From the NCBI GenBank assembly GCA_018175275.1, contig GCA_018175275.1_4531.1: DNA of 64,000 nucleotides, one strand, 5' to 3'. Position numbers and translations under genes: made by a program. The notes beneath the pieces were generated by a model. The model did no database searches. It saw nothing but the letters and a program-made list of their open reading frames with translations, and was not told the origin of the DNA. Position 1 is the first letter of the stretch. Every line of letters starts with the position of its first letter. This DNA comes from a phage. Below, piece by piece: positions 9,489-50,247 of this stretch.

Positions 9489-9567
9489 TGGAGGCGGGAA
9501 TTGGATTTGAACCAATGATCTCCAGCATATGAAACTGGCGAGGACGACCAGACTCCTCTATCCCGCT
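9489..9567 (-). tRNA. tRNA-Met(CAT): tRNA-Met/Ile2 (CAT)
   Basis: acceptor AGCGGGA/TCCCGCC (1:72 mismatch), D-stem GAGG/CCTC, anticodon loop TT-CAT-AT, T-arm ATTGG-TTCAAAT-CCAAT, CCA encoded. Confidence 0.5.
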
Positions 9568-9645
9568 ATTATGTATCCCGTGCTGGATTCGAACCAGCGT
9601 CACAATAAATTGTGGATCTCTTATCCTGTAAGTCTAACGGGAAAC
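9568..9645 (-). tRNA. tRNA-like element, anticodon arm not resolvable (possible degenerate tRNA)
   Basis: canonical T-arm GCTGG-TTCGAAT-CCAGC and 6/7 acceptor complementarity, but no canonical 7-nt anticodon loop found by eye. Confidence 0.25.
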
Positions 9646-9719
9646 TGGTTGTTTCGACAAGAATCGAACTTGTATCTCACGATTATCAGTCGTGGGTTCT
9701 ACCATTGAACTACGAAACA
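9646..9719 (-). tRNA. tRNA-Ile(GAT): tRNA-Ile (GAT)
   Basis: acceptor TGTTTCG/CGAAACA, D-stem GTTC/GAAC, anticodon stem CACGA/TCGTG with loop CT-GAT-AA, T-arm ACAAG-TTCGATT-CTTGT, CCA encoded. Confidence 0.7.
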
Positions 9720-9782
9720 TTTAAAAGAATATCTCACGTCTGATACAGACTAACCTTTTGTCTGACGCATGAAATATTTAAT

Positions 9783-9859
9783 TGGTCGGAATTGCAGGAT
9801 TCGAACCTGCGACCCTACGCTCCCAAAGCGTATGCTCTACCAAACTGAGCTAAATTCCG
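9783..9859 (-). tRNA. tRNA-Pro(TGG): tRNA-Pro (TGG)
   Basis: acceptor CGGAATT/AATTCCG, D-stem GCTC/GAGC, anticodon stem TACGC/GCGTA with loop TT-TGG-GA, T-arm GCAGG-TTCGAAT-CCTGC; 5' end overlaps the stop of the HNH gene. Confidence 0.7.
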
Positions 9860-10368
9860 TTATTAATGTGCTTCCATGTGGTGTAAGTAACAATATCCTG
9901 TATTGTCCATCTTGAAACTTCATACTTTTTTGCCAATGCTCGTTGACTAATTTTAGTAGTCTCATACTCCATACGGATTTGAATAACATCTTTTTCTGAT
10001 AACTTGGCTTTATTATTTTCTTCCCCTTTAGGATTAACAAGTAATCCTGTGCTAACAGCGTGTGTCATATTCTCATGCTGTGTCGCCCACTCCACGTTAT
10101 CCTTGTGGTTGTTAAGCTTGTTACCATCTTTGTGATTAACAGATTTCTTGTTTTCAGGATTAGGATGAAAAGCTTTACAAACCAAACGGTGAATCTTAAA
10201 ACAAATACTTTTTCCTTTTCTACCGCCAATTTTTGTTGCGTGGGTATAGTAACCTGTTTTAGATATGGTTTGGGATAGTATCTTATTAGTTCTCTTACTT
10301 CTTAATCTTCCGAGGTCACTTATTTGGAAGTAATTCTCATAACCAGCTACATCACGCCATTCTTCCAT
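9850..10368 (-). CDS. HNH homing endonuclease (NUMOD4-like N-terminus) inside the tRNA cluster
   Basis: 172 aa; N-terminal EEWRDVAGYENYFQISDLGRLRS; HNH core HRLVCKAFHPNPENKKSVNHKDGNKLNNHKDNVEWATQHEN; AAGGAGG RBS. Confidence 0.6.
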   Translation of the reverse strand: MEEWRDVAGYENYFQISDLGRLRSKRTNKILSQTISKTGYYTHATKIGGRKGKSICFKIHRLVCKAFHPNPENKKSVNHKDGNKLNNHKDNVEWATQHENMTHAVSTGLLVNPKGEENNKAKLSEKDVIQIRMEYETTKISQRALAKKYEVSRWTIQDIVTYTTWKHINNGI

Positions 10369-10494
10369 TTATACCTCCTTATACCTGAATAAAACAATAA
10401 ACCATTTAATGAAGGGCAACCAGAAGAAGTGTGAGAGAAGGAGAAAACCATGAGTAAAAGAGAAAGTTTTCTGGCAACCCTTTATTAAATAATT

Positions 10495-10571
10495 TGGAGC
10501 GTTATATCGGATTCGAACCGATGCCACCGACTTGGAAGGACGGGATGCTGAACCGCTAACACTAATAACGC
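10495..10571 (-). tRNA. tRNA-Gly(TCC): tRNA-Gly (TCC)
   Basis: perfect acceptor GCGTTAT/ATAACGC, anticodon loop CT-TCC-AA, T-arm ATCGG-TTCGAAT-CCGAT, CCA encoded; D-arm slightly irregular. Confidence 0.6.
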
Positions 10572-10588
10572 TTTGTATATATATATTT

Positions 10589-10618
10589 ACTATACTACAT
10601 TTTACTATCGAATGTCAA
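10589..10618 (-). promoter_or_regulatory. sigma70-like promoter (TTGACA-N18-TATAGT) driving tRNA-Gly
   Basis: minus-strand TTGACA (plus 10613-10618) and TATAGT (plus 10589-10594), about 20 nt upstream of the tRNA 5' end. Confidence 0.5.
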
Positions 10619-10893
10619 TAGTTATTTAATAGGTGGGACAGTGACGAGTATCCCTTTGGGTGACTAGCCCTACGTTCGGTAAGCTAACTTAAAATAATAC
10701 AAAACCAAAGTCAAATATTATTCTTCGTTGCTGTCGATGGGAGAGCCGCTTCTCATTTTGCCCCATCCAACCCTACTCCGGTCAAGTTTCGGGTGACTCT
10801 TTTTGTGATCAACACAATACTAAGAACACTGTCTTTCGAGCAGACCTTGTGCACAGGATACGACGATCAATCACAGTGCTCTTAATGTTGTGT

Positions 10894-10968
10894 TGGTGCT
10901 CCCACACTGAATCGAACAGAGATCCACGGATTACAAAACCGTTGTAATAGCCATTATACTATAGGAGC
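10894..10968 (-). tRNA. tRNA-Thr(TGT): tRNA-Thr (TGT)
   Basis: acceptor GCTCCTA/TGGGAGC (one G-U), 3-bp D-stem, anticodon stem ACGG/CCGT with loop TT-TGT-AA, T-loop TTCGATT, CCA encoded. Confidence 0.5.
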
Positions 10969-10973
10969 AATGC

Positions 10974-11051
10974 TGGGACTCGGCAGGATTCGATACCTGC
11001 AATTCCAGAAGCCTATTGGCGACTGGGGGTTTACCTTAACTCTACAAGTCC
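10974..11051 (-). tRNA. tRNA-like element with 8-nt T-loop and non-canonical anticodon region
   Basis: T-arm GCAGG-TATCGAAT-CCTGC and acceptor complementarity GGACTTG/CGAGTCC; central region forms an extended hairpin instead of a standard anticodon arm. Confidence 0.25.
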
Positions 11052-11058
11052 ATAATTC

Positions 11059-11144
11059 TGGCGATGAGTATAGGATTCGAACCTATATTGTTCTTTCGAA
11101 CACGGATTAACAGTCCGCCGCTTAAACCATTCAGCCAACTCATC
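11059..11144 (-). tRNA. tRNA-Asn(GTT): tRNA-Asn (GTT) with unusually long variable region
   Basis: perfect acceptor GATGAGT/ACTCATC; anticodon arm GCGGA-CTGTTAA-TCCGT; about 14-nt variable hairpin GTTC-GAAA-GAAC; T-arm ATAGG-TTCGAAT-CCTAT. Confidence 0.5.
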
Positions 11145-11150
11145 TTAATT

Positions 11151-11238
11151 TGGTGGTGAGTGATGGAGTCGAACCACCCGAATCGCAATGATAACAGATT
11201 TACAGTCTGCCCCGCTACCCCTACGGAATTAACTCACC
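11151..11238 (-). tRNA. tRNA-Tyr(GTA): tRNA-Tyr (GTA), type II
   Basis: perfect acceptor GGTGAGT/ACTCACC, anticodon stem GCAGA/TCTGT with loop CT-GTA-AA, long variable arm, T-loop TTCGACT, CCA encoded. Confidence 0.6.
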
Positions 11239-11368
11239 TAAATACTAATATTTAAATTCTTTTTAAAATAGCCAGTGTTCACACCACTAACTATGAGTTA
11301 TCGGTAAAGTGGTTACCGCCACTTGCCGAAGATTTACTCTGCTAAAGTAAGCTACATTAAAAAGAACT

Positions 11369-11454
11369 TGGCGGTAGATGTAGGACTCGAACCTACACGC
11401 CGTTTCCGACTACAGTTTAGCAAACTGTCGTGGCTACCATTTCACCAATCTACC
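11369..11454 (-). tRNA. tRNA-Ser(GCT): tRNA-Ser (GCT), type II
   Basis: perfect acceptor GGTAGAT/ATCTACC, anticodon stem ACAGT/ACTGT with loop TT-GCT-AA, long variable arm, T-arm GTAGG-TTCGAGT-CCTAC, CCA encoded. Confidence 0.7.
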
Positions 11455-11459
11455 TAATC

Positions 11460-11550
11460 TGGCGGAAGGAGGGAGAGTCGAACTCCCAAGGCTCTTTCAA
11501 GCTCGGCGGTTTTCAAGACCGTTTTCGTCGCCACATCGATTTGCCCTTCC
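11460..11550 (-). tRNA. tRNA-Ser(TGA): tRNA-Ser (TGA), type II
   Basis: acceptor GGAAGGG/TCCTTCC, anticodon loop CT-TGA-AA, long variable arm GAGCTTGAAAGAGCCTT, T-arm GGGAG-TTCGACT-CTCCC, CCA encoded. Confidence 0.65.
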
Positions 11551-11559
11551 ATACTTATA

Positions 11560-11588
11560 ATCTAACATAAAATAATGTTTGTTGTCAA
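11560..11588 (-). promoter_or_regulatory. sigma70-like promoter (CTATTGACA -35, weak -10) upstream of tRNA-Ser
   Basis: minus-strand TTGACA (plus 11583-11588); -10 candidate TAGATT at 18-nt spacing. Confidence 0.35.
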
Positions 11589-11784
11589 TAGTTTTTTAAA
11601 ACATTTTACCATGAATGGTGACTCCACCAACCCCCGTTCTCCACGAACGGTGCTCTTCGAGCATTTATGTCTTCTAATATAACCGTGGCCTTTGTTTATA
11701 ATGTCTGACATACTTGCCTCATTCTCTGCCACCATGATCAGTAGTGGGTTCAAATCACTTGAGCTAATTCATGTTAAAATGTTC

Positions 11785-11859
11785 TGGTGTCTTTACAAGG
11801 AATCGAACCTTGACTAAGAGTTTAGAAGACTCCTGTGCTATCCATTACACCATAAAGAC
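11785..11859 (-). tRNA. tRNA-Arg(TCT): tRNA-Arg (TCT)
   Basis: perfect acceptor GTCTTTA/TAAAGAC, D-stem GTGT/GCAC, anticodon stem GGAGT/ACTCT with loop CT-TCT-AA, T-arm CAAGG-TTCGATT-CCTTG, CCA encoded. Confidence 0.7.
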
Positions 11860-11861
11860 TT

Positions 11862-11936
11862 TGGTGGCCCTGGCTGGTTTCGATCCAGCTACCTATCGGT
11901 TATGAGCCGACAGCTCTCCCATTGAGCTACAGGGCC
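11862..11936 (-). tRNA. tRNA-Met(CAT): tRNA-Met or Ile2 (CAT)
   Basis: perfect acceptor GGCCCTG/CAGGGCC, D-stem GCTC/GAGC, anticodon stem GTCGG/CCGAT with loop CT-CAT-AA, T-arm GCTGG-ATCGAAA-CCAGC, CCA encoded; acceptor resembles E. coli tRNA-Ile2. Confidence 0.65.
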
Positions 11937-12692: not shown

Positions 12693-12729
12693 CTCCTCAC
12701 TTCTAGTTTAGCACGAAGGATATCTTAAG

Positions 12730-12915: not shown

Positions 12916-12942
12916 TGCACACCTCCATTCTTGTTAAGATGT

Positions 12943-13721: not shown

Positions 13722-13817
13722 TGAGAACCCAATCCTGACAACAATTGTTCTGATTTTTGCCATGTGTGTGGTTCACGATGTTCTGGTAAGTTATTTTGAC
13801 AACAAAGGAGGTAAGAA

Positions 13818-14012: not shown

Positions 14013-14248
14013 GCAAATATCCAATTACAGGTGTAACCTATTCTTGTGTATCAAAAGGTGGCTTATATACGGTCGTGGAATTTCCAAAACCTGCCGGAAT
14101 ATCTAAAGTGTTTGATCCTGTTGTTATCTATGAAGATCTTAGAACAGGTCAACGTTATTGGAGATTTGTGAATGACTTTTTAGATCGTATGGAGGTAGTA
14201 AGTGGCGAAAACACCGAAGAAGTTATCAAAGCCAAAGAACGTTACTAA
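14009..14248 (+). CDS. hypothetical small protein
   Basis: 79-aa ORF, start overlaps previous stop. Confidence 0.4.
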   Translation: MSKYPITGVTYSCVSKGGLYTVVEFPKPAGISKVFDPVVIYEDLRTGQRYWRFVNDFLDRMEVVSGENTEEVIKAKERY

Positions 14249-14555
14249 GAAACCGAAAAACGAGGTTCTCAAAGTAGCCAAATCAGTTCCTAAGAAAGAT
14301 AAGTTTGATACGGAGGCATTCGTCTTTGACACACCAATCGAGAAGATTGAAGAAGCGTTGCAACGTCTTGAGGAGCAGGAGGCAGATCCAATGGCTGAAC
14401 CACTCACGGCAGACCAAATCTATTGGTGGGGAATATGGACTTTGCAACTGCCAGAAGCAAAAAGAAGAGGAATGACTTCAGTTCCTACTTGTGCAAAAGA
14501 AGCTGCTGTGTTAGGTTTGTATGAGAAATCTAAAAAGAGGAGCAAAAAGAAATGA
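14202..14555 (+). CDS. hypothetical lysine-rich protein (possible nucleic-acid binding)
   Basis: 117 aa; N-terminus KTPKKLSKPKNVTKKPKNEVLKVAKSVPKK; start uncertain (overlaps previous ORF). Confidence 0.35.
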   Translation: MAKTPKKLSKPKNVTKKPKNEVLKVAKSVPKKDKFDTEAFVFDTPIEKIEEALQRLEEQEADPMAEPLTADQIYWWGIWTLQLPEAKRRGMTSVPTCAKEAAVLGLYEKSKKRSKKK

Positions 14556-14833
14556 TCAAGACTTTCCTGAAGTGTGTAAAAGCAACAGATAGTGAGTGGT
14601 ACTCTGGATTATTCACTGTTGGCAAGAAATATGAGATCCTCAACGGGACAGGCAAGAAGTTTTCTCTCGTTGTAAACGATGAAGGCACGAAGCAAATGGT
14701 ATTTGCTGAAAGCTCTGTCTATGGTATCTTTGAAGTGGTGCAAGAAGGCTCTCCAATGATTCTGGAGTATCATGGCACTAATAAACCATATACTGCTATG
14801 GATGTTATCAACAACAAGAGGAATGCAAAATGA
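14552..14833 (+). CDS. hypothetical protein
   Basis: 93-aa ORF, overlapping-stop/start packing. Confidence 0.4.
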   Translation: MIKTFLKCVKATDSEWYSGLFTVGKKYEILNGTGKKFSLVVNDEGTKQMVFAESSVYGIFEVVQEGSPMILEYHGTNKPYTAMDVINNKRNAK

Positions 14834-15012
14834 TTTTGCTCTATTCCGGTAAGGCAAAATACATGCAAGGTGTTAAACGCGTAGAGGTTACTAGGACAGT
14901 AACAATAGGGAAATCTTTTATCGTTTATTGTTTCCTTGTTAATGGGAAGGAGTATGCTGTAGCAAAGACCTTGGTTGATAATGGTAAAACTTGGAAAGTG
15001 GAGGCACTATGA
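14830..15012 (+). CDS. hypothetical small protein
   Basis: 60-aa ORF in operon-like packing. Confidence 0.3.
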   Translation: MILLYSGKAKYMQGVKRVEVTRTVTIGKSFIVYCFLVNGKEYAVAKTLVDNGKTWKVEAL

Positions 15013-15206
15013 TCACTGTAGCTGGGTGGGTGGTATTGGCAACACTTAATGGGAATGTTACTGTGGAGACTAAAACCATCTTCAAAGCACCAGAAGATTG
15101 CTATAACTCCTTGGTAACTTGGCCTCGTGATGAGGATGATAAGGCAGAGTATCAGTGTTTTTACATTGAGGGTAAGCCTGTAGAATTTGAGGTGAGGGTG
15201 AAATGA
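14991..15206 (+). CDS. hypothetical small protein
   Basis: 71-aa ORF. Confidence 0.3.
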   Translation: MESGGTMITVAGWVVLATLNGNVTVETKTIFKAPEDCYNSLVTWPRDEDDKAEYQCFYIEGKPVEFEVRVK

Positions 15207-15688
15207 AAATAAAAATTACTAAAGCACATGTAGATAACCCACAATTCTTTTCTTTGAATACAAGCTACGATATTAAAAACGGAGATGAGTTTGATGTTGT
15301 TGATATTGTAACAGATTCCGATGGCGTGGATTTTGGATATATGATTGTTCCTCCTTGTGGCGGTAGTCCTATTGTTGTATTGCGTGACGAAGCTGTAGAA
15401 GTGAGTTATGATGAATCCCAATACGACAGTCCATATATGACAGAGTGGATCGTGGCTGTAGATGTTGGAGGTATGGTTTCTGTACTGAAAGCTCCAAATC
15501 TCCACCCTGGTTTTACAGAGAACGGTAAGACAGCTTTGGATTATGGGTTGCCAGAAGATGTTGAGAATACACCGCCAGGTATGTACCGTTGGATTTGCTC
15601 TTTCCATGAAGAGAAGGATTGGGAATCAGGGCTTGTGGAGGATTGGCATTTTGAAGTGGAGAGTTCTTTTTTAATCATGCCTGCTTAG
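15203..15688 (+). CDS. hypothetical protein
   Basis: 161-aa ORF. Confidence 0.4.
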   Translation: MKIKITKAHVDNPQFFSLNTSYDIKNGDEFDVVDIVTDSDGVDFGYMIVPPCGGSPIVVLRDEAVEVSYDESQYDSPYMTEWIVAVDVGGMVSVLKAPNLHPGFTENGKTALDYGLPEDVENTPPGMYRWICSFHEEKDWESGLVEDWHFEVESSFLIMPA

Positions 15689-15698
15689 AGGAGGTTAT

Positions 15699-16055
15699 AT
15701 GGGTACTATTATTTGGCTTGATGATTTACGTGATCCAAAAGATTATGGTTATCCAGATGCAATCTGGTTTAAAACATCACAGGAACTTCTTGCCTCTCGT
15801 TACATGAATGAGGTGCAGAAGGGTTATCGTTTTGTAGACGAGTGGCATTTTGACAACGATTTGGGTGAAGACTCTGATCGAGATGGGTATGATGTTTTCT
15901 TACATTTGGAAGAACTCCTGATGTTTGGTAAACCTTGTTTTGGTTCACCTACTATTTTCGTGCATACTTCTAATCCCTCCGCTGGGGATAAATTCATGCT
16001 TGCAAAAGAATCCATGCTGCGTTATGGTATTCAAATGAAGCGTGTTCACTATTAA
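15699..16055 (+). CDS. hypothetical protein
   Basis: 118-aa ORF with GAGGAGG RBS. Confidence 0.4.
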   Translation: MGTIIWLDDLRDPKDYGYPDAIWFKTSQELLASRYMNEVQKGYRFVDEWHFDNDLGEDSDRDGYDVFLHLEELLMFGKPCFGSPTIFVHTSNPSAGDKFMLAKESMLRYGIQMKRVHY

Positions 16056-16066
16056 GGAGAAACTTA

Positions 16067-16423
16067 ATGAGCAGTATTGATCAGAACATTTGTTACCAAC
16101 CTCTCGCTTGGATCGGTGAGGGGCATTATGCGCAACGTGTTATCGTCTGTGCTGCGAATAAGTATATTTTGAATAATGGTGAAGAATTAATTATTCCTTG
16201 CGTTAGACATGCAAATCCTGTATTATCTGCACAATTGAATGTATTGAAAGAAGCAGGTGTGCTTGATAAAGCGCATTGCCTTCCAAACAATCAAGGTTTT
16301 ATTGATCAATACTACAATTGGTGGAGTCGTGAAGATGCATACATCATTGCAAAACACGCAGACCAGATTGACTACGAACGTAATGGTCATGATCGTGACC
16401 TATTTAGCGAGGGATTATACTAA
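16067..16423 (+). CDS. hypothetical protein
   Basis: 118-aa ORF with AAGGAGA RBS, immediately upstream of the RNA-repair genes. Confidence 0.4.
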   Translation: MSSIDQNICYQPLAWIGEGHYAQRVIVCAANKYILNNGEELIIPCVRHANPVLSAQLNVLKEAGVLDKAHCLPNNQGFIDQYYNWWSREDAYIIAKHADQIDYERNGHDRDLFSEGLY

Positions 16424-16974
16424 TGTTTATTACAAGTGATTTGCATTTTATGCACAAACGTATACGAGAGTTTGCTCCTGAATATCGACCGTGGGAGGAT
16501 ATGGACCACATGACAGAAGCCTTGATCGAAGCATGGAACAAATGTGCTACTACTCCTGGTGTTAAGATGTGGCATTTGGGCGACTTCTGTTTCGGAACTG
16601 AAGAAGATACCCGTAAAATTGCTTCTCGTCTCCAAGGAGATATCACCTACTGTGTTGGGAACCATGACTACAGCAAACACCGAGAAGTGCTTGCAGAGTA
16701 TGGTGAAGTGGTGTATTATGACGAAGTGAAATATCAGAAGCTGTTCTTCGTCTTAAGTCATTACCCTATGGCCTCCTGGAACAAACAAGGTCGTGGATCA
16801 ATCATGCTACACGGGCATTCCCACGGATCTTTCCCTGATGAAGCTTATGGTAAAATGTTAGATGTGGGTTGGGATGCACACGGAAAAATCTTGCATTTTG
16901 ATGAGATAATTACTATGATGAGTAAACGAGATATCGTGACTGTAGACCATCACAAAATAATCAAAGGAGAGTAA
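16423..16974 (+). CDS. calcineurin-like metallophosphoesterase (candidate RNA end-healing phosphatase)
   Basis: 183 aa; motifs SDLHF, LGDFCFG, VGNHD, LHGHSHG; translationally coupled to the RNA ligase gene. Confidence 0.6.
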   Translation: MFITSDLHFMHKRIREFAPEYRPWEDMDHMTEALIEAWNKCATTPGVKMWHLGDFCFGTEEDTRKIASRLQGDITYCVGNHDYSKHREVLAEYGEVVYYDEVKYQKLFFVLSHYPMASWNKQGRGSIMLHGHSHGSFPDEAYGKMLDVGWDAHGKILHFDEIITMMSKRDIVTVDHHKIIKGE

Positions 16975-16975
16975 T

Positions 16976-17908
16976 GTGACTAAATTTAATTGCGACGATT
17001 TGGTTGAAAAAGGTTTAGTTCATAAGAAAACATATAAAGAAGGAGAGTATTCTGGTCTATCTGTTCTTAAGTATAAGAACAAAGTTTTCTGGGATAACCT
17101 GTGGAACATTGATTCTCGTCTTCTAGAATGTCGCGGAATCGTTGTTGACGCTGATGACAATGTTGTTATTTGGCCTTTCACTAAGATTTTTAATCGTTTT
17201 GAGAATGGCACAGATCTACCAGCGGATGAATTTGTAGATGTGGTTCGTAAAGTAAATGGTTTTATGGCCTCTGTAGGTGTATATAAAGGTCAACTTATTG
17301 TATCGACAACAGGAAGCCTTGAATCAGATTTTGCAAGTATTGCAAAGAATCATATTGTTTCAGAGTGTGATGACATAGAACATTTCATCAAATGGACAGA
17401 GAGTGCAAAAGCAACTTTCCTTTTTGAAATCTGTGATCCTTCTGATCCGCATATTGTCGAAGAAGAACCAGGTGCATACTTAATTGGTGCCAGAATTCAA
17501 AACCCTGATGGGACAAGTTTTATGTTACCTGAAGGTGCTCTTGATGGAATTGCTTCTGTCACCAAATTTAAGCGTCCTGAAGTTCATCCAATGGTTAAGT
17601 TTTCAGATGTTGTTGAAATGTCTAAACATTGTAAACACGAAGGGTTTGTAGTTCGTGAAACAAACTATCCGTTCAACTTACTTTTAAAAATTAAATCACC
17701 ACACTATCTTACTAAGAAGTTTCTTATGCGCGGTGGAGATAAAAAGTGGGATCTGATTTGGGATAATCCAAAAAATGCCAAACAAATGGTTGACGAAGAA
17801 TATTACGCTTTGTTAGAATGGATTCGAAATAATTTTACGAAGACTCAATGGGCTGCTTTAAATCAGCAAGAGCGACGTGAAAAAATCGAAAACTTTTTTG
17901 GAGGATAA
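16976..17908 (+). CDS. RNA ligase, T4 Rnl1-like
   Basis: 310 aa; LLECRGIVVDADDNV resembles T4 Rnl1 ALECRGIMFEMDGE; nucleotidyltransferase motifs KVNGF (I), EGFVVRE (IV), LLLKIKSP (V); GTG start with AAGGAGAG RBS. Confidence 0.6.
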   Translation: MTKFNCDDLVEKGLVHKKTYKEGEYSGLSVLKYKNKVFWDNLWNIDSRLLECRGIVVDADDNVVIWPFTKIFNRFENGTDLPADEFVDVVRKVNGFMASVGVYKGQLIVSTTGSLESDFASIAKNHIVSECDDIEHFIKWTESAKATFLFEICDPSDPHIVEEEPGAYLIGARIQNPDGTSFMLPEGALDGIASVTKFKRPEVHPMVKFSDVVEMSKHCKHEGFVVRETNYPFNLLLKIKSPHYLTKKFLMRGGDKKWDLIWDNPKNAKQMVDEEYYALLEWIRNNFTKTQWAALNQQERREKIENFFGG

Positions 17909-18313
17909 ATGAAACAACTTATCATTTTACGTGGCGTTTCAGGTGCTGGTAAATCTACAGTAGCAGAAATTATTTCTGAAGGTTATTGGCCTATCTGTGA
18001 GGCAGATCAATATCATTACACAGAGAGTGGTGTTTACGATTGGAAGCCAGAAAATGTAGGTAAAGCACACGCATGGTGTCAGGGTATTGTTCGTGATGCT
18101 ATGGCATCTAATCTTAACAAGATTATTGTTTCTAATACTTCAACCACAGAGAAAGAACTTAAACCTTATCTAGCTCTTGCTGAAGAGTTTGGTTATCAAG
18201 TTATCTCTTTAGTTGTTGAAAATAGGCACGGTAATGATTCAATTCACGAGGTTCCACAATATATCCGTGATCAGCAAGAGAAACGTCTTCGTGGTTCACT
18301 TAAACTTCAATAA
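17909..18313 (+). CDS. pnk: polynucleotide 5'-kinase (T4 Pnk kinase-domain-like P-loop kinase)
   Basis: 134 aa; MKQLIILRGVSGAGKSTVAEII resembles T4 Pnk [23 protein letters not shown]; Walker A GxxGxGKS. Confidence 0.55.
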   Translation: MKQLIILRGVSGAGKSTVAEIISEGYWPICEADQYHYTESGVYDWKPENVGKAHAWCQGIVRDAMASNLNKIIVSNTSTTEKELKPYLALAEEFGYQVISLVVENRHGNDSIHEVPQYIRDQQEKRLRGSLKLQ

Positions 18314-18322
18314 GGAGAAATA

Positions 18323-18649
18323 ATGCAGATTTATACAGATGATCGTAAATATGAGACAATTTTAGATGAAGATACTGGACGAATTACCGTTCTCCGTCAC
18401 GGTGAAGAGTGGCGTGATGAAACGGGAGACAATTATATCTTGTCTCTGATTCATCTTATTGAACAAATGCGTGATGATTACGCTGAACTGCATTATGAAA
18501 ATGAGGCTAATAAAGTAAAATTTGAAAATGAATTAGAAGAGAAAGAATCCGAAATGGTATATCTAAAAGAAGAGATCTCCCGTTTGGAGGAAGAGATTGA
18601 TGCTCTTCAAGAAGAGATTTACGAACTCAACAACGAACTGAACGCTTAA
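18323..18649 (+). CDS. hypothetical coiled-coil protein
   Basis: 108 aa; C-terminal heptad-like EEISRLEEEIDALQEEIYELNNEL. Confidence 0.4.
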   Translation: MQIYTDDRKYETILDEDTGRITVLRHGEEWRDETGDNYILSLIHLIEQMRDDYAELHYENEANKVKFENELEEKESEMVYLKEEISRLEEEIDALQEEIYELNNELNA

Positions 18650-18658
18650 GGAGGGATT

Positions 18659-18847
18659 ATGAAAAAAGATATCGTTGTTGGTTGGCTGACTTGCCCTTGT
18701 GGTAGTAATGACATAACTGTAAACACAGAGGGTGATAAAAATTATTTATTCTACGGGGATAAAATCACTTGCAATACCTGCGGACGTGTTGGTATTATAG
18801 AAACCGATGATTGTTGTGCTTTTGAATCTTGGGATGAAGAAGAATGA
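18659..18847 (+). CDS. hypothetical zinc-ribbon protein
   Basis: 62 aa; CPCG...CNTCG cysteine pairs. Confidence 0.4.
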   Translation: MKKDIVVGWLTCPCGSNDITVNTEGDKNYLFYGDKITCNTCGRVGIIETDDCCAFESWDEEE

Positions 18848-19065
18848 GTACTGCATTTTATGTTCGTAGCGGAGACGAGGATTTTCTGGCTACTTTTGAT
18901 GACGGTGATATTGAAGATATGTATGACGATATGCTTGACTATGCCAAAGGGCAAGGTTTCACAAGCATTGATTATATGTTGGCAACATCTACAACGTTAC
19001 TCGACGCAGATTTGGATGAAGTGTGTAACAGATTGAAAATTTCAGTTTTTAAATGGGAGGACTAA
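18844..19065 (+). CDS. hypothetical acidic small protein
   Basis: 73-aa ORF, Asp/Glu-rich. Confidence 0.35.
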   Translation: MSTAFYVRSGDEDFLATFDDGDIEDMYDDMLDYAKGQGFTSIDYMLATSTTLLDADLDEVCNRLKISVFKWED

Positions 19066-20180
19066 TGCAACAAACAAATCAAACGCTGTATGGTAAAGAT
19101 TCAAAAGGAAAACTTAAACAGTGGACAGTGTATACAGATGGTGCAGTTGTTACTGTAGCTCATGGAAGGGTAGGTGGAAAAATCACAGAAAAATCTTATA
19201 CAGCAGAAGCAAAAAACATCGGTCGTTCCAATGAAACAACACCGGAAGAACAAGCTGAACTTGAAGCTTTTGCCAAATGGACAAAACAGTTAAAGAATGG
19301 CTATTATAAAACAAAAGAAGAAGCTGAAAACCATGTTCCTTCTACACCAATGAAATGCCAGGATTATAAAGATTATCCTGAAAGGGTTGTGTTCCCTGGT
19401 TATGCACAATACAAACTGAACGGGTTACGTTCTATGATTAACATGAAAGGGGAGTGTTTATCAAAAGCTGGGGAAGTGTATAACCTGCCACCTCATTGGA
19501 AAGGTATTCCAAACTTTATTAGTGAAGTTGTTGGTCATCCTCTTGATGGTGAAGTGTTTGCTGGGTTAGGTGTCCTTAGTCTGCAACAAATTAATAGTGC
19601 CTGGAAGAAGCATAATGCAAATACACCTTTGCTGAATTATTACGTATATGATATTCCAGTTCCAGATCTACCGTTTGAAAAACGTGTTGATGTTCTTGCT
19701 GCTCTTAAGGCAGTAGTTGAAGATTATGGTCTTGATGAGCTTATTTGTGTAGTTCATACAGAGTATATTGAAAACCAAGAACAGTTTGATGCTTTCTATG
19801 AAAAAGCTTTACTTGAAAAGGCTGAAGGTGTAGTATATCGTAATGCTCGCGGAGTTTACGAATTTGATAAACGCTCTTATGACGTTATTAAACGTAAACC
19901 TCGTCATACTCTTGAAGTTAAAGTAACAAATTCAAAAAGTGATAAAAATGGTGATGGAGTGTTGACAGGCGAGATGGAAAATGGTAAAGTAGTCGAATTC
20001 TTAATGCGTAAAGATGCTCATGAGACTATCAATTATCGTAAAGCAGAGAATGCTTCTACCTTGATTAATCAGTTCGTTGAAATAGAATATGAAGAATTTT
20101 CAGATGAAGGTATTCCGACAAAACCTGTTGGTGTTCGTATTCGAGAAATGATCCCAGGCACTTGGGAACCAGCAGAGTAA
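19065..20180 (+). CDS. ATP-dependent nucleic-acid ligase (nucleotidyltransferase superfamily; DNA vs RNA ligase unresolved)
   Basis: motif I K-L-N-G-L-R (Asn where DNA ligases have Asp), motif IV EGVVYR, motif V VIKRK; ATG at 19065 with GGGAGGA RBS. Confidence 0.55.
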   Translation: MQQTNQTLYGKDSKGKLKQWTVYTDGAVVTVAHGRVGGKITEKSYTAEAKNIGRSNETTPEEQAELEAFAKWTKQLKNGYYKTKEEAENHVPSTPMKCQDYKDYPERVVFPGYAQYKLNGLRSMINMKGECLSKAGEVYNLPPHWKGIPNFISEVVGHPLDGEVFAGLGVLSLQQINSAWKKHNANTPLLNYYVYDIPVPDLPFEKRVDVLAALKAVVEDYGLDELICVVHTEYIENQEQFDAFYEKALLEKAEGVVYRNARGVYEFDKRSYDVIKRKPRHTLEVKVTNSKSDKNGDGVLTGEMENGKVVEFLMRKDAHETINYRKAENASTLINQFVEIEYEEFSDEGIPTKPVGVRIREMIPGTWEPAE

Positions 20181-20302
20181 GGAGGAAAAATGTTTTTAGC
20201 CATTCTAATCGTTTTCAGTGCGCTTTCTTTTTATTGTATGAATGCTTCGGAAAACTTTCCTAAGAATTCAAAGAAAAGAACCGTATGTGTTGCGATTGAT
20301 TC

Positions 20303-20563: not shown

Positions 20564-20572
20564 GGAGTTATA

Positions 20573-21298
20573 ATGATCGAGAATTTTTTTAAAGATATTA
20601 AATTCGATACTGAATTTTTCAAAAATGCAGCAAAGCACGTGATTGATTGGAATGCTAAAGCGCGAGGTGGTGAACAACCTGAATTTACTCAAGAGCTATT
20701 TATGTCCCAAATCGGGTTCGTTCGTGAAGAACTTAAAGAGTATGAAACAGCCGCGAAAGTAAACGATCATGTAGAACTCTTGGACGCAGCAGCAGATATT
20801 TTTGTAGTATCCAGTTATCTGACTTACATGTTCTTTGGTGAAGAACATACGATGAATTTCTTGGACTATACTGTAGGTGATGTTTTTACTCCGACTGTGT
20901 ATACTGACTTTGATGCTTTGGAACAAACATTTACAGAGCCAGTTCAAATGGCACTAATGGCTGCTGGTATTATGCGTATGTCTCGTGACACTCTCATTCG
21001 TTCAAAATATCCAGAAAAGAAAATTATTAAAGAAGTATTGAAAAGTAACGATTCCAAGTATCCAACTAAACAACAGTTGCTGAAAACTTGGAAAACTTCA
21101 GATATCGATTCAGCCATTGCACAAGAATGCACTGCAATTGAAGAACGAAACGCCAATCGTCCAGAAGGAGCATACACGGGTGTTCATGCTGTTTATAATG
21201 AAAAACAGAAAGTGTATGTGTTCTTTGATGATAAAGGTAAGATCATGAAGTGGTCAGGTTTCATTAAACCCAACATTGCAGCTATTATCAAAAAATGA
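20573..21298 (+). CDS. putative MazG-like nucleotide pyrophosphohydrolase
   Basis: 241 aa; REELKEYETAAKVNDHVELLDAAADIFVV resembles the MazG EExxE...D helix pair; weak call. Confidence 0.35.
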   Translation: MIENFFKDIKFDTEFFKNAAKHVIDWNAKARGGEQPEFTQELFMSQIGFVREELKEYETAAKVNDHVELLDAAADIFVVSSYLTYMFFGEEHTMNFLDYTVGDVFTPTVYTDFDALEQTFTEPVQMALMAAGIMRMSRDTLIRSKYPEKKIIKEVLKSNDSKYPTKQQLLKTWKTSDIDSAIAQECTAIEERNANRPEGAYTGVHAVYNEKQKVYVFFDDKGKIMKWSGFIKPNIAAIIKK

Positions 21299-48970: not shown

Positions 48971-49462
48971 ATGTTTCAAGTAGAAATTCATGTGCACAAC
49001 AGTTGTTCAAATTGCGAAACTTGTGGTTACAATAGTTCAACCATGATCACTATTAGCGGAGACTTAGGAGATGCCAAGTTTGGCGAAGTTGCAAGCTGCT
49101 TCAGCGGAGAGGATGCAGATTGGCATGATATTGCACACTGGTTGGTGAGCAAACTAAAAGAAAAAGAGAAACCATTTCCTGCTCTGCTTGATCGTTCTCT
49201 TGTGGAAGATGCAGGTAAAGCATATGCAGACTATGCATATGCAGACGGGAAATATTTGGAAGATGATAAGGCTAACCATTTGCTTTATGTTTACTATGAA
49301 GCTGAATCTGCCTACGATAATTATTACAGCATGTCCAACATTCTACGTTTGTTTGCGGAGTTTGATATTTACTTTGAAGTGAGTTATTCTCAAGACGAAG
49401 TGCACGATTTGGATGACGAAGATTATGATGATTATGAGGAGGAAGAATGCCAAGACGATTAA
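48971..49462 (+). CDS. hypothetical highly acidic protein
   Basis: C-terminus DEVHDLDDEDYDDYEEEECQDD; ATG 48971 with GGGAGGAAAT RBS. Confidence 0.4.
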   Translation: MFQVEIHVHNSCSNCETCGYNSSTMITISGDLGDAKFGEVASCFSGEDADWHDIAHWLVSKLKEKEKPFPALLDRSLVEDAGKAYADYAYADGKYLEDDKANHLLYVYYEAESAYDNYYSMSNILRLFAEFDIYFEVSYSQDEVHDLDDEDYDDYEEEECQDD

Positions 49463-50247
49463 TAGTGATCAGCGGCGCTGGCTTAAGCGCCGATAGCGGT
49501 GTTCGTACTTTCCGCACTGACACAGAAAGTGGCAAAGCTTTGTGGGATGAATACGACCTTTCTGAAGTGTGCGACATTTTCAACTTCCGTGCTGGATACC
49601 AACAAGAACAGTGTGTTCCTGGGGCTGTTGGCGGATTAGATGCAGAGGGATACAACCTCTACCGTAAAACTCATGACTTCTACAATAAACGTCGCGTAGA
49701 GATGGATAGTGTAACTCCTAACGCTGCGCATTACCAGATCGCGGAATGGTTTCAAGAGTACGGCTGTGATCGTGTTATCAACATCACGACAAACGTAGAT
49801 GATCTTCTGGAACAAGCGGGTGTTGTTCATGAAGATGTTCTACATGTTCACGGCTTCCTGCCTGAAGTGATCGTAGACAATAGAATCATCAAAGATGTTG
49901 GCTATGCTGCTATCGATGTGGATGATTACAAGTATGTGAAGCCCAATGTAGTGTTCTTTGGGGAGACTGCCCCATTGTATAACGATATGTACCACATCTT
50001 AGACGGCTTGACGGCTCAAGATATGGTGATTGTAGTGGGTTGCTCTAATCAAGTTATCAATTTTAACTGGGAGCTTTTTCCTGCTCTTAATAGCGGGACA
50101 AAAATGGTTGTAGTTAACCCTGGAGTTAATTACGAAGAAACACTTCTCTATGAAGATCGTGGAGTTTTTGTTTACCGAGAAAAAGCTGCAACAGCCTTCA
50201 GCAATGAAGGTTTCATTAAAATGGTCGAAGACCACTTAAACAAATAA
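49447..50247 (+). CDS. Sir2-family (sirtuin-like) NAD-binding protein
   Basis: 266 aa; GAGLSADSGVRTFR, ITTNVDDL, HVHG, VVFFGE motifs; no CxxC...CxxC zinc ribbon. Confidence 0.6.
   Translation: MPRRLIVISGAGLSADSGVRTFRTDTESGKALWDEYDLSEVCDIFNFRAGYQQEQCVPGAVGGLDAEGYNLYRKTHDFYNKRRVEMDSVTPNAAHYQIAEWFQEYGCDRVINITTNVDDLLEQAGVVHEDVLHVHGFLPEVIVDNRIIKDVGYAAIDVDDYKYVKPNVVFFGETAPLYNDMYHILDGLTAQDMVIVVGCSNQVINFNWELFPALNSGTKMVVVNPGVNYEETLLYEDRGVFVYREKAATAFSNEGFIKMVEDHLNK

What the first reader, a model, noticed from the sequence alone, without database searches (positions are those of the whole stretch)
16423..18313. Three-gene RNA repair module beside the tRNA cluster
Consecutive coupled genes encode a calcineurin-like metallophosphoesterase, an Rnl1-like RNA ligase (LLECRGIVVDADDNV; motif I K-V-N-G) and a Pnk-like P-loop kinase. 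In T4, Pnk plus Rnl1 repair tRNAs cleaved by host anticodon nucleases (established knowledge); here the end-healing phosphatase appears to be a separate metallophosphoesterase instead of the HAD-type phosphatase domain fused to T4 Pnk. That rearranged architecture suggests a counter-defence against tRNA-targeting nucleases.
Basis: partly seen in the sequence, partly recalled or inferred. Interest (0 to 1): 0.5.

Follow-up and report, generated by a model that had tools for sequence, protein, structure and literature searches.

The report
Phage RNA heal-and-seal repair module
This E. coli phage carries a tightly packed set of genes for a phosphoesterase, an RNA ligase and an RNA-end kinase that most likely mends tRNAs cut by bacterial defence nucleases; the same set recurs in many phage groups and is already annotated and partly described, so it is a solid but unsurprising finding.

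Summary
Window 16423-18313 holds three translationally coupled genes. They encode a 183-aa binuclear metallophosphoesterase (MPE), a 310-aa Rnl1/Trl1-clade ATP-dependent RNA ligase and a 134-aa stand-alone Pnk-like P-loop kinase. The window is a Phapecoctavirus (phAPEC8-like coliphage).

The trio is not a chance neighbourhood:
- It recurs, in varying order, in at least 8 phage genera.
- Of 51 ligase-anchored viral contigs, 46 carry the MPE, 40 the kinase and 35 both.
- Natural kinase-ligase, MPE-RNA-ligase and MPE-'RNA-repair HAD' fusion proteins exist.

The module is larger than the finding. A cREC gene (predicted cyclic-phosphate-processing domain) lies two genes upstream, and a Sir2 gene that sits next to the ligase in rV5-like phages lies 31 kb away here.

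The most likely function is healing and sealing of 2',3'-cyclic-phosphate/5'-OH RNA breaks, probably in tRNA, as a counter-defence. No activity was tested.

It is not new. Public records already annotate these genes, and Iyer et al. 2022 described the rV5/Mydo version of this neighbourhood.

One open point: the ligase resembles fungal Trl1 as much as T4 Rnl1. It has an invariant His/Lys/Arg set near the positions of the fungal 2'-phosphate-recognition triad.

The parts
16423..16974 (+). Binuclear metallophosphoesterase, 183 aa (aq_1665-like clade). Proposed 2',3'-cyclic-phosphate / 3'-phosphate end-healing enzyme.
   Evidence: PHROG 547 at 1e-55; Pfam Metallophos_2 at 25.2 bits (cut-off 27). 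The family profile finds Aquifex aq_1665 (1xm7) at E 6e-19. Invariant DxH, GD, GNH, H and GHxH motifs. Linked to the ligase in 46 of 51 viral loci. A 53%-identical relative is fused to an RNA ligase domain in a syntenic contig.
16976..17908 (+). ATP-dependent RNA ligase of the Rnl1/Trl1 clade, 310 aa, GTG start.
   Evidence: Pfam RNA_lig_T4_1 at 56.7 bits against a cut-off of 28.3. The profile finds T4 Rnl1 2c5u at E 1e-15. AF2 pLDDT is 92, and the top 10 Foldseek PDB hits are fungal Trl1-LIG and T4 Rnl1. Invariant R53, K70, F72, K92, G95, E151, E222, G223, K238 and K240.
17909..18313 (+). Stand-alone Pnk-like P-loop kinase, 134 aa. Proposed RNA 5'-OH kinase.
   Evidence: Pfam AAA_33 at 3e-10; PHROG 2071 at 2e-56; PHROG 505 'polynucleotide kinase' at 8e-8. 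The profile finds T4 Pnk 1ly1/1ltq at E 5e-7 over the full length, then Pnkp1 4xrp and CthPnk 4gp7. The P-loop and D33, which aligns with T4 Asp35, are invariant. Median gap to the ligase gene is 0.5 nt, and natural kinase-ligase fusions exist.
15699..16055 (+). cREC protein, 118 aa (cyclic-phosphate-processing receiver-like domain). Probable accessory of the module.
   Evidence: Pfam cREC_REC PF20274 at 7e-14, 52.7 bits against a cut-off of 27. Invariant DD8-9, D52/D54, T90/S91 and K98. Also lies next to the ligase in FV3 and KB57 and in L172. Predicted function comes from PMC7824862 and PMC9503650.
16067..16423 (+). 118-aa protein of unknown function (PHROG 839, T4 Arn.3-like), inserted between cREC and MPE. 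Its membership of the module is doubtful.
49447..50247 (+). Sir2-family protein. Orthologue of the sirtuin that lies next to the ligase in rV5-like phages, but unlinked here.
   Evidence: 51-57% identical to the FV3 and KB57 Sir2. Pfam SIR2 at 6e-20.
20573..21298 (+). MazG-like nucleotide pyrophosphohydrolase. Part of the published rV5-type neighbourhood, but not a core partner.
   Evidence: phmmer match to the FV3 and KB57 MazG-like genes. Annotated in nepoznato. Present in only 7 of 51 ligase-anchored loci.
9489..11936 (-). Cluster of nine phage tRNA genes, divergently oriented. Context and possible substrates.
   Evidence: ARAGORN. tRNA genes lie within 8 kb of the ligase in about 25 of 52 viral loci.

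Best explanation
The genes at 16423-18313, probably together with the cREC gene at 15699-16055, encode a split RNA 'heal-and-seal' pathway.

The proposed mechanism is as follows. [quoted passage not shown] The metallophosphoesterase, and/or cREC, opens and removes the 3'-terminal phosphate. The 134-aa kinase phosphorylates the 5'-OH. The Rnl1/Trl1-clade ligase then reseals the break using ATP.

This does in three or four separate proteins what T4 does with Pnkp plus Rnl1, and what bacteria do with the kinase-MPE-ligase protein Pnkp.

Shown here: the protein family identities, intact catalytic motifs, tight gene coupling, conserved linkage across phage groups, and domain fusions.

Inferred: the substrates (RNA, tRNA), which enzyme performs which 3' step, and the counter-defence role.
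For: - **Family identity:**
- **Catalytic residues are invariant across genera:** ligase R53, K70, F72, K92, G95, E151, E222/G223 and K238/K240; kinase P-loop and D33; all MPE metal motifs.
- **Conserved in known phages:** the trio lies within about 2 kb in Phapecoctavirus, Vequintavirus, Mydovirus, Pakpunavirus, Thalassavirus (a siphovirus), Otagovirus, Saclayvirus and Plateaulakevirus. Order and strand vary.
- **Conserved in viral contigs, anchored on the ligase:** 46 of 51 loci carry the MPE, 40 the kinase and 35 both. All 51 have at least one.
- **Conserved in viral contigs, anchored on the MPE:** the P-loop kinase (40 of 80 loci) and the Rnl1-like ligase (33 of 80) are the two commonest same-strand neighbours. 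A second RNA-ligase family, PTP-SAK phosphatases and HD proteins also recur there.
- **Fusion proteins:** a 432-aa kinase-ligase ORF. A 524-aa MPE-RNA_ligase protein whose MPE part is 53% identical to the window's; it sits in a contig with the order cREC - x - MPE fusion - Rnl1 - AAA_33 - DNA ligase - RdgC. MPE-HAD_SAK_2 'Swiss Army Knife RNA repair' fusions.
- **tRNA proximity:** tRNA gene clusters often lie near the ligase in unrelated lineages.
Against: - No biochemical or genetic data exist for any member of these three families that I could find.
- The MPE belongs to the uncharacterised aq_1665 clade, not the lambda-phosphatase clade of CthPnkp.
- About half of the best 80 MPE-anchored loci have neither ligase nor kinase within 8 kb. 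The MPE family is very large: 11,089 clusters at 50% identity. It is therefore not dedicated to this module.
- In the HMMER alignment the kinase has no counterpart of T4 Arg38. Its candidate lid arginine (R106) is missing in one genus.
- The ligase's C-terminal region is only about 68 aa, against about 120 aa in T4 Rnl1. tRNA specificity therefore cannot be assumed.
- An ATP-dependent DNA ligase is also a frequent neighbour, in 24 of 51 loci.
- The MPE gives a weak hit to the DNA-damage-associated PdeM model (E 0.003).
Confidence: 0.68

Rival explanations
1. The purpose is the same (RNA repair) but the chemistry is yeast-like. The MPE or cREC acts only as a cyclic phosphodiesterase and leaves a 2'-phosphate/3'-OH end. 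The ligase, like fungal and plant Trl1, needs that 2'-phosphate. The 2'-phosphate left at the junction is then removed with NAD+, by the phage Sir2 or by the host's KptA.
For: - Fungal Trl1-LIG structures match the model at least as well as T4 Rnl1, with TMq 0.60-0.68 against 0.60-0.63 and longer alignments.
- Motif I is K-x-N-G rather than T4's K-E-D-G.
- Invariant H159 lies 8 residues after the motif III Glu. Invariant K248 and R252 lie 8 and 12 residues after the second motif V Lys. In fungi, the 2'-phosphate triad is a His 9 residues after the motif III Glu plus two Arg just after motif V (PMC11404444). T4 Rnl1 has no such residues in the aligned positions.
- The C-terminal domain is a small helical bundle, like the five-helix fungal C-domain.
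- Sir2 and cREC lie next to the ligase in rV5-like phages, and an NAD-dependent 2'-phosphate removal was proposed for them (PMC9503650).
- NAD-salvage and Macro genes often flank the ligase: NAMPT in 29 of 80 loci, Prs in 26, Macro in 18.
Against: - No residue-level structural superposition could be made, and the spacing differs by one residue.
- Sequence profiles find T4 Rnl1 but not fungal LIG.
- Sir2 is absent from the neighbourhoods of most genera and lies 31 kb away here.
- No Tpt1/KptA gene was seen in the annotated neighbourhoods.
Confidence: 0.17
2. The kinase, MPE and ligase process DNA ends rather than RNA. They would clean 3'-phosphate/5'-OH nicks during replication, recombination or repair, working with the nearby ATP-dependent DNA ligase, RdgC and exonucleases.
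For: - The DNA ligase is a frequent neighbour, in 24 of 51 loci.
- The block lies among replication and recombination genes.
- The MPE gives a weak match to PdeM, a ligase-associated DNA-damage phosphoesterase.
- T4 Pnkp also acts on DNA ends (established knowledge).
Against: - The ligase belongs to the Rnl1/Trl1 RNA-ligase clade by sequence and by fold.
- The phage has a separate, bona fide DNA ligase at 19053-20180.
- The MPE family is fused to RNA-ligase and RNA-repair HAD domains.
- The PdeM score is 16.8 bits against a cut-off of 150.
Confidence: 0.06
3. The genes are neighbours because they share early-gene synteny, and they work independently. For example, the MPE would degrade cyclic-nucleotide immune signals, the kinase would act on free nucleotides, and the ligase would serve as a tail-fibre attachment factor like T4 gp63.
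For: - About half of the MPE loci lack a ligase or kinase.
- After aq_1665, the closest solved relatives of the MPE are the cyclic-nucleotide phosphodiesterases Rv0805 and GpdQ, at weak E-values of 0.006-0.02.
- Public records label the ligase 'tail attachment protein'.
- Iyer et al. call the kinase a 'nucleotide kinase' (PMC9503650).
Against: - The linkage survives changes of gene order and strand across unrelated phage families, including a siphovirus.
- The median ligase-kinase gap is 0.5 nt.
- Three kinds of domain fusion tie the components together.
- The 'tail attachment' label is inherited from T4 gp63 by name only.
Confidence: 0.06
4. The module matures or recycles the phage's own RNAs rather than countering host nucleases. 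Examples would be processing of the phage tRNA cluster transcripts, or rejoining RNAs cut by a phage-encoded RNase.
For: tRNA clusters are often nearby. In Streptomyces phage Faust, the ligase and a Pnk gene sit inside the tRNA array.
Against: Bacterial tRNA maturation needs no ligation. None of the nine tRNA genes in the window was reported as split or intron-containing. No associated phage endoribonuclease was identified in the window.
Confidence: 0.03

Closest known systems
Phage T4 tRNA repair: Pnkp (PseT) plus RNA ligase 1 (gp63/RnlA), which counters the PrrC anticodon nuclease
   Same: Both have a Pnk-type P-loop 5'-kinase, and T4 Pnk is the best PDB match of the kinase family. Both have an Rnl1-type adenylyltransferase domain with equivalents of R54, K75, F77, K99, G102, E159, E227/G228 and K240/K242. 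Both are phage-encoded and have the same presumed heal-and-seal logic.
   Different: - The kinase has no fused HAD 3'-phosphatase domain.
- A separate metallophosphoesterase, and a cREC protein, occupy that role.
- T4 Asp101 and Lys119 are replaced by invariant Asn94 and Thr112.
- The ligase C-terminal region is about 68 aa rather than about 120 aa.
- The NCBIfam T4 RnlA equivalog cut-off is missed by far: 23.8 against 242 bits.
Bacterial Pnkp-Hen1 RNA repair (Clostridium thermocellum Pnkp: kinase - metallophosphoesterase - ligase)
   Same: It uses a binuclear metallophosphoesterase for 2',3'-cyclic-phosphate/3'-phosphate healing, together with a Pnk-like kinase and an ATP-dependent ligase (PMC2190708, PMC3675462). 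The CthPnk kinase domain is among the top PDB hits of the kinase profile.
   Different: - The window has three separate genes rather than one polypeptide.
- The MPE is of the aq_1665 clade, not the lambda-phosphatase clade.
- The ligase is Rnl1/Trl1-like, not the Pnkp-type ligase.
- No Hen1 methyltransferase gene is annotated or seen next to the module. It was not specifically searched for.
Sirtuin-centred RNA-repair neighbourhood of phage V5 (rV5) and Proteus phage Mydo (Iyer et al. 2022, PMC9503650, section 3.7.3)
   Same: This is essentially the same gene set: a T4-like tRNA ligase, cREC, a nucleotide kinase, MazG and a calcineurin-like phosphoesterase. FV3 and KB57 orthologues were confirmed here.
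   Different: - In the window, Sir2 is not in the neighbourhood but 31 kb away.
- The phosphoesterase, called 'occasional' in the paper, is the most constant partner of the ligase in my sample (46 of 51 loci), whereas cREC, MazG and Sir2 are lineage-restricted.
- An Arn.3-like gene is inserted between cREC and the MPE gene.
Fungal/plant tRNA ligase Trl1 (ligase - kinase - 2H cyclic phosphodiesterase) with Tpt1
   Same: Its ligase domains are the best structural matches of the model. Motif I is K-x-N-G. Both have a small helical C-domain. The window ligase has an invariant His/Lys/Arg set near the positions of the fungal His-Arg-Arg 2'-phosphate triad (PMC11404444). Kinase-ligase fusions exist in some phages.
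   Different: - Sequence similarity to Trl1 is not detectable with profiles.
- There is no 2H domain.
- Fusion order is kinase-ligase, not ligase-kinase.
- A 2'-phosphate requirement is untested.
- No Tpt1 was seen.

Membership tests
Rnl1-clade ATP-dependent RNA ligase (T4 RNA ligase 1 family, Pfam PF09511) | Match to the family model above the curated cut-off | tested here: met
   PF09511 scores 56.7 bits against a cut-off of 28.3. The family profile finds T4 Rnl1 2c5u at E 1.3e-15.
Rnl1-clade ATP-dependent RNA ligase (T4 RNA ligase 1 family, Pfam PF09511) | Nucleotidyltransferase motifs I, III, IV and V, with the adenylated lysine | tested here: met
   K92 (KVNG), E151, E222-G223 and K238/K240 are invariant in 8 genera and in 26 database homologues. 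They align to T4 K99, E159, E227-G228 and K240/K242.
Rnl1-clade ATP-dependent RNA ligase (T4 RNA ligase 1 family, Pfam PF09511) | T4-specific essential residues Asp101 and Lys119 (list of essential residues recalled from Shuman-lab mutagenesis) | tested here: not met
   The aligned positions are invariant Asn94 and Thr112.
Rnl1-clade ATP-dependent RNA ligase (T4 RNA ligase 1 family, Pfam PF09511) | Orthologue-level identity with T4 RnlA (NCBIfam equivalog TIGR02308) | tested here: not met
   23.8 bits against a cut-off of 242.
Rnl1-clade ATP-dependent RNA ligase (T4 RNA ligase 1 family, Pfam PF09511) | T4-type C-terminal domain of about 120 aa that confers tRNA specificity | tested here: inconclusive
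   Only residues 242-310 follow motif V, forming six short helices. Foldseek alignments to T4 Rnl1 span 284-293 columns. No residue-level comparison was possible.
Rnl1-clade ATP-dependent RNA ligase (T4 RNA ligase 1 family, Pfam PF09511) | Sealing of 3'-OH/5'-phosphate RNA (tRNA) ends | not testable with these tools
   Needs enzymology.
T4-type polynucleotide kinase-phosphatase (Pnkp) | P-loop 5'-kinase domain with the catalytic Asp | tested here: met
   The profile finds T4 Pnk 1ly1/1ltq at E 5e-7 across residues 2-132. Invariant G-x4-GK[ST] and D33 align with T4 K15/S16 and D35.
T4-type polynucleotide kinase-phosphatase (Pnkp) | Fused C-terminal HAD (DxDxT) 3'-phosphatase domain | tested here: not met
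   The protein ends at residue 134. Pfam finds only P-loop NTPase/kinase families and no HAD. The listed homologues with full query coverage are 126-145 aa.
T4-type polynucleotide kinase-phosphatase (Pnkp) | Phosphate-contacting arginines (T4 Arg38, Arg126) | tested here: inconclusive
   The position aligned to Arg38 is variable (His36 in the window). Arg106 is conserved in 7 of 8 genera but aligns to T4 Arg122 rather than Arg126 in the HMMER alignment.
Bacterial Pnkp (CthPnkp-type kinase-metallophosphoesterase-ligase) | Binuclear metallophosphoesterase active-site motifs | tested here: met
   D6-x-H8, G53-D54, G79-N80-H81, H113 and G131-H132-x-H134 are invariant in 8 genera.
Bacterial Pnkp (CthPnkp-type kinase-metallophosphoesterase-ligase) | Phosphatase of the lambda-phosphatase-like clade | tested here: not met
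   The profile search of the PDB returns aq_1665 (6e-19), then weak Rv0805 and GpdQ hits. No lambda phosphatase or CthPnkp phosphatase appears at E of 1 or below.
Bacterial Pnkp (CthPnkp-type kinase-metallophosphoesterase-ligase) | All three activities in one polypeptide | tested here: not met
   Three separate ORFs. Related phages do hold pairwise fusions.
Bacterial Pnkp (CthPnkp-type kinase-metallophosphoesterase-ligase) | 2',3'-cyclic phosphodiesterase and phosphomonoesterase activity on RNA ends | not testable with these tools
   Needs enzymology.
cREC (PF20274) cyclic-phosphate-processing receiver-like domain | Model match above cut-off, and a conserved receiver-type acidic, Thr/Ser and Lys set | tested here: met
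   52.7 bits against a cut-off of 27. DD8-9, D52/D54, T90/S91 and K98 are invariant in 5 sequences. The activity itself is only predicted in the literature (PMC9503650).
rV5/Mydo sirtuin-centred RNA-repair neighbourhood (PMC9503650) | T4-like ligase, cREC, nucleotide kinase, MazG and (sometimes) a calcineurin-like phosphoesterase in one neighbourhood | tested here: met
   All are present between 15699 and 21298.
rV5/Mydo sirtuin-centred RNA-repair neighbourhood (PMC9503650) | Sirtuin gene within the neighbourhood | tested here: not met
   The Sir2 orthologue lies at 49447-50247, 31 kb away. It is adjacent in FV3 and KB57.
Trl1-type (Rnl6) 2'-phosphate-dependent tRNA ligase | Structural similarity to the fungal LIG domain | tested here: met
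   Hits 9qw7, 6n0t, 6n67, 8rbj and 9r3w have E 1e-12 to 3e-11 and TMq 0.60-0.68.
Trl1-type (Rnl6) 2'-phosphate-dependent tRNA ligase | His-Arg-Arg triad: His nine residues after the motif III Glu, two Arg just after motif V | tested here: inconclusive
   Invariant H159 (+8), K248 (+8) and R252 (+12), compared with the rule in PMC11404444. No superposition could be made. A profile of the C-terminal half finds nothing in the PDB.

The most novel reading that the evidence does not exclude
The ligase family may be a phage counterpart of fungal and plant tRNA ligase that requires, or strongly prefers, a 2'-phosphate at the 3'-OH end.

In that case the metallophosphoesterase or cREC would act as a cyclic phosphodiesterase producing 2'-phosphate ends. 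The 2'-phosphate left at the junction would then be removed with NAD+ by the phage Sir2 or by the host's Tpt1 homologue KptA.

This would be the first 2'-phosphate-junction RNA repair pathway in the bacterial world. It would give bacterial Tpt1/KptA, whose natural substrate is unknown, a source of substrate.
Probability: 0.15. Interest if true: 0.75.

Novelty: new member of a known kind. Interest (0 to 1): 0.36.

Why it matters
tRNA- and RNA-cleaving defence systems are being found in growing numbers: PrrC, RloC, PARIS, Cas13 collateral cleavage and retron- or toxin-linked tRNases. Yet the only phage RNA-repair pathway studied experimentally is T4 Pnkp plus Rnl1.

This module is far more widespread than the T4 arrangement among large virulent phages of Enterobacteria, Pseudomonas, Vibrio, Acinetobacter and Aeromonas. 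Several of these phage groups are used therapeutically.

If it works as proposed:
- It defines a second, split architecture for viral RNA repair.
- It gives a function to a very large uncharacterised metallophosphoesterase clade.
- It predicts which defences these phages can shrug off.

The practical value is a clear, cheap set of experiments rather than a conceptual surprise.

Tried and rejected
- **Single-sequence PDB searches.** The ligase found nothing and the kinase only noise. Family profiles were needed.
- **Promoter and terminator scan of 11800-21500.** Promoter-like sites were no more frequent than in shuffled sequence, and there was no convincing terminator inside the block. Operon boundaries could therefore not be set.
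- **Sir2 hypothesis for the upstream gene.** I tested whether the 118-aa gene between cREC and the MPE was the missing sirtuin. It is not. It is a T4 Arn.3-like protein with no known fold relatives. The real Sir2 lies 31 kb away.
- **'Anti-restriction nuclease' and 'RNA ligase and tail attachment protein' labels.** These labels on the two upstream genes in public records were rejected as naming artefacts.
- **Mapping the fungal 2'-phosphate triad by sequence.** A profile of the ligase's C-terminal half finds no PDB relative. No further fold-search jobs were available, and the afdb50 library was not installed.
- **Scan of 185,579 bacterial and archaeal genomes for the ligase.** The single pattern used ([PS][SDE]DPHIV[EQ]E) gave no relatives. 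This suggests restriction to phages, but the test is limited to that pattern.
- **Alternative 3'-healing genes beside kinase-ligase fusions.** Loci with the fusion but no MPE were inspected. The adjacent 229-aa protein has no Pfam match.
- **Burroughs & Aravind 2016.** The main survey of RNA-repair systems is not held in the library.

Full report
**What the window is.** The region 15600-18700 is 99% identical to Phapecoctavirus 536P1. It is 96-98% identical to many phAPEC8-like Escherichia, Shigella and Klebsiella myoviruses of the Stephanstirmvirinae. In those records the genes of the finding are already labelled 'phosphoesterase/metallophosphatase', 'putative RNA ligase' and 'ATPase / putative polynucleotide kinase'.

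**Observation.**
- The three ORFs lie at 16423-16974, 16976-17908 and 17909-18313 on the + strand.
- The stop of the upstream gene overlaps the MPE start (TAATG). One base separates MPE and ligase, whose GTG start follows AAAGGAGAG. None separates ligase and kinase.
- Domain searches confirm the three identities:
  - MPE: PHROG 547 at 1e-55. Pfam Metallophos_2 scores 25.2 bits, just under its cut-off of 27.
  - Ligase: Pfam RNA_lig_T4_1 at 56.7 bits against a cut-off of 28.3.
  - Kinase: Pfam AAA_33 at 3e-10, PHROG 2071 'ATPase' at 2e-56 and PHROG 505 'polynucleotide kinase' at 8e-8.
- The tRNA cluster (nine genes, 9489-11936) is on the opposite strand, about 4.5 kb from the MPE start. 'Beside' is therefore generous.

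**Anatomy of the proteins.** I aligned orthologues from eight phage genera and searched the family profiles against PDB sequences.

*Ligase*
- The profile finds T4 Rnl1 (2c5u, E 1.3e-15) across the adenylyltransferase domain.
- Equivalents of T4 R54, K75, F77, K99, G102, E159, E227/G228 and K240/K242 are invariant. T4 D101 and K119 are replaced by invariant N94 and T112.
- An AlphaFold model (pLDDT 92) has as its ten best PDB matches fungal Trl1 ligase domains (TMq 0.60-0.68) and T4 Rnl1 (TMq 0.60-0.63). Rnl3, Rnl2, Rnl5 and DNA ligases follow.
- Only about 68 residues, forming six short helices, follow motif V. T4 Rnl1 has about 120.

*Kinase*
- The profile's best hits are the T4 Pnk kinase domain (1ly1/1ltq, E 5e-7, full length), then Capnocytophaga Pnkp1 and the C. 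thermocellum Pnkp kinase.
- The P-loop is invariant, and so is D33, which aligns with the T4 general base Asp35.
- There is no phosphatase domain. The listed database homologues with full query coverage are 126-145 aa.

*MPE*
- It keeps every canonical binuclear-metal motif.
- Its only clear solved relative is the uncharacterised Aquifex protein aq_1665 (E 6e-19). It is not in the lambda-phosphatase clade used by bacterial Pnkp.

**Is the grouping meaningful?** Yes, on four counts.
1. *Conservation in known phages.* The trio lies within about 2 kb in Phapecoctavirus, Vequintavirus FV3, Mydovirus KB57, Pakpunavirus C11, the siphovirus Thalassavirus Athena, Otagovirus phiPsa374, Saclayvirus phiAbaA1 and Plateaulakevirus phiA047. 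Order and even strand differ.
2. *Viral contigs anchored on the ligase.* Of 51 IMG/VR loci with at least 4 kb on both sides, 46 hold the MPE, 40 the kinase and 35 both. None lacks both. The median ligase-kinase gap is 0.5 nt and the median ligase-MPE gap is 374 nt.
3. *Viral contigs anchored on the MPE.* The two commonest same-strand neighbour families are P-loop AAA_33 kinases (40 of 80 loci) and the Rnl1-like ligase (33 of 80). Recurrent further neighbours include a second RNA-ligase family (PF09414), PTP 'Swiss Army Knife' phosphatases, HD proteins and DUF2828/DUF7788 proteins.
4. *Fusion proteins.*
   - A 432-aa kinase-ligase ORF occurs in five contigs.
   - A 524-aa protein has an N-terminal half 53% identical to the window's MPE and a C-terminal RNA_ligase domain. 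It sits in a contig with the order cREC - x - MPE fusion - Rnl1 - AAA_33 - ... - DNA ligase - ... - RdgC, which is syntenic with the window.
   - MPE-HAD_SAK_2 ('HAD domain in Swiss Army Knife RNA repair proteins') fusions also exist.

On the other side, about half of the 80 best MPE loci have neither partner within 8 kb. The MPE family is also huge, at 11,089 clusters at 50% identity. The family is therefore not dedicated to this module.

**The module is larger than the finding.**
- Two genes upstream, at 15699-16055, lies a cREC protein (PF20274, 7e-14) with the receiver-type catalytic set conserved.
- Aravind's group predicted cREC to resolve cyclic phosphates. [quoted passage not shown]
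- The window is a variant of that neighbourhood. MazG is at 20573-21298, but the Sir2 orthologue is 31 kb away at 49447-50247.
- In my samples the phosphoesterase is the constant partner. cREC (7 of 51), MazG (7 of 51) and Sir2 are restricted to the rV5, Mydo and phAPEC8 lineages.
- A 2025 genome paper on a Pakpunavirus likewise reads the orthologues as a 5'-kinase 'lacking the 3'-phosphatase domain' plus RNA ligases (PMC12846349).
- I found no biochemical or genetic study of any of these proteins.

**Most likely mechanism.** The module is a split heal-and-seal pathway for RNA broken to 2',3'-cyclic-phosphate/5'-OH ends.
- The MPE, helped or paralleled by cREC, heals the 3' end.
- The kinase heals the 5' end.
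- The ligase seals the break.
- There is precedent for a binuclear MPE in this role. [quoted passage not shown]
- tRNA as the substrate and counter-defence as the purpose are inferred. The grounds are the T4 paradigm, the Rnl1/Trl1 affinity of the ligase, and the frequent nearness of tRNA clusters. About 25 of 52 viral loci have tRNA genes within 8 kb, and in Streptomyces phage Faust the ligase and a Pnk gene sit inside the tRNA array. That proximity count is not corrected for relatedness.

**An open twist.**
- Fungal Trl1 ligase requires a 2'-phosphate end. It reads that end with a His nine residues after the motif III Glu and two Arg just after motif V (PMC11404444).
- The phage family has an invariant His159 eight residues after Glu151. 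It also has invariant Lys248 and Arg252, eight and twelve residues after Lys240.
- T4 Rnl1 has nothing comparable at the aligned positions.
- Four further observations point the same way:
  - The K-x-N-G form of motif I.
  - The small helical C-domain.
  - The Trl1 structural matches.
  - The frequent Sir2, NAD-salvage and Macro neighbours. NAMPT occurs in 29, Prs in 26 and Macro in 18 of 80 loci.
- Together these keep alive a yeast-like route in which a 2'-phosphate junction is made and later removed with NAD+.
- I could not superpose the structures, and sequence profiles do not reach fungal LIG. I give this reading about 15%.

**Rivals.**
- *DNA-end processing* is disfavoured. The ligase has a clear RNA-ligase affinity, the phage has a separate DNA ligase at 19053-20180, and the MPE is fused to RNA-repair domains. 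The PdeM hit is 16.8 bits against a cut-off of 150.
- *Independent functions brought together by synteny* is disfavoured by the reshuffled yet preserved linkage and by the fusions.
- *The 'tail fibre attachment' label* is inherited from T4 gp63 by name only.

**Verdict.** The finding is real and correctly interpreted at the level that sequence analysis allows. The kind of system is already known from annotation and comparative genomics, and the window adds one more member with a relocated Sir2. Its value lies in being a well-defined, widespread and untested alternative to the T4 repair pair.

Noticed in passing
[not shown]
   Followed up: partly
window 15699-16055 (+): The cREC gene is annotated in several public records as 'putative RNA ligase and tail attachment protein'. 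It has no ligase domain, so the label is wrong.
   Followed up: yes
window 49447-50247 (+): This Sir2-family gene is 51-57% identical to the sirtuin that lies directly beside the RNA ligase in FV3 and KB57. Here it sits 31 kb from the ligase, at the end of the long + strand gene block, next to DUF7275/DUF7277 and unannotated genes.
   Followed up: partly
window ligase residues H159, K248, R252 (codons within 16976-17908): An invariant His/Lys/Arg set lies at +8 from the motif III Glu and at +8 and +12 from the second motif V Lys. This resembles the fungal tRNA ligase His-Arg-Arg 2'-phosphate-recognition triad, which is absent from T4 Rnl1.
   Followed up: partly
L121 7536-8834; also L128, L131, L132, L133: Viral metagenome contigs encode a single 432-aa protein that fuses the Pnk-like kinase (N-terminal) to the Rnl1-like ligase. 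These loci have no MPE within 8 kb. Four of the five carry a phage tmRNA gene nearby, and three carry tRNA-Arg and tRNA-Ser genes.
   Followed up: partly
L172 5001-6575 (protein P0286); proteins P0310, P0316: One protein fuses an MPE 53% identical to the window's to a PF09414 RNA-ligase domain, in a contig syntenic with the window. Other family members are fused to the HAD_SAK_2 'Swiss Army Knife RNA repair' domain.
   Followed up: yes
L004, L005, L006, L007, L008 and 80 IMG/VR loci (L091-L169): In other genera, NAD+ salvage genes (nicotinamide phosphoribosyltransferase, ribose-phosphate pyrophosphokinase) and a Macro-domain gene lie within a few kb of the ligase/kinase/MPE genes (29, 26 and 18 of 80 loci). 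HD_4 phosphohydrolases occur in 27 of 80. None of these is next to the module in the window.
   Followed up: partly
window 9853-10368 (-): An HNH endonuclease gene sits inside the tRNA array, between tRNA-Pro and tRNA-Gly, and abuts the end of tRNA-Pro. In phage ESCO25 a tRNA-Gln gene lies between these two tRNA genes and no HNH gene is annotated there. This suggests a homing-endonuclease insertion that displaced a tRNA gene.
   Followed up: partly
window 42775-43515 (+) and 43837-44415 (+): A second metallophosphoesterase of the lambda-phosphatase (NinI-like) type and a DprA-like/SLOG protein are encoded 25 kb downstream. Lambda-type phosphatases have 2',3'-cyclic phosphodiesterase activity in vitro, and in Vibrio phage Athena a NinI-like gene lies directly upstream of the RNA ligase.
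   Followed up: no
window 18323-18649 (+): A 108-aa coiled-coil protein directly follows the kinase gene. It is variously annotated 'hol-like chemotaxis' or 'DNA polymerase I' in public records. Neither label is supported by the Pfam results, which give only weak coiled-coil matches.
   Followed up: no
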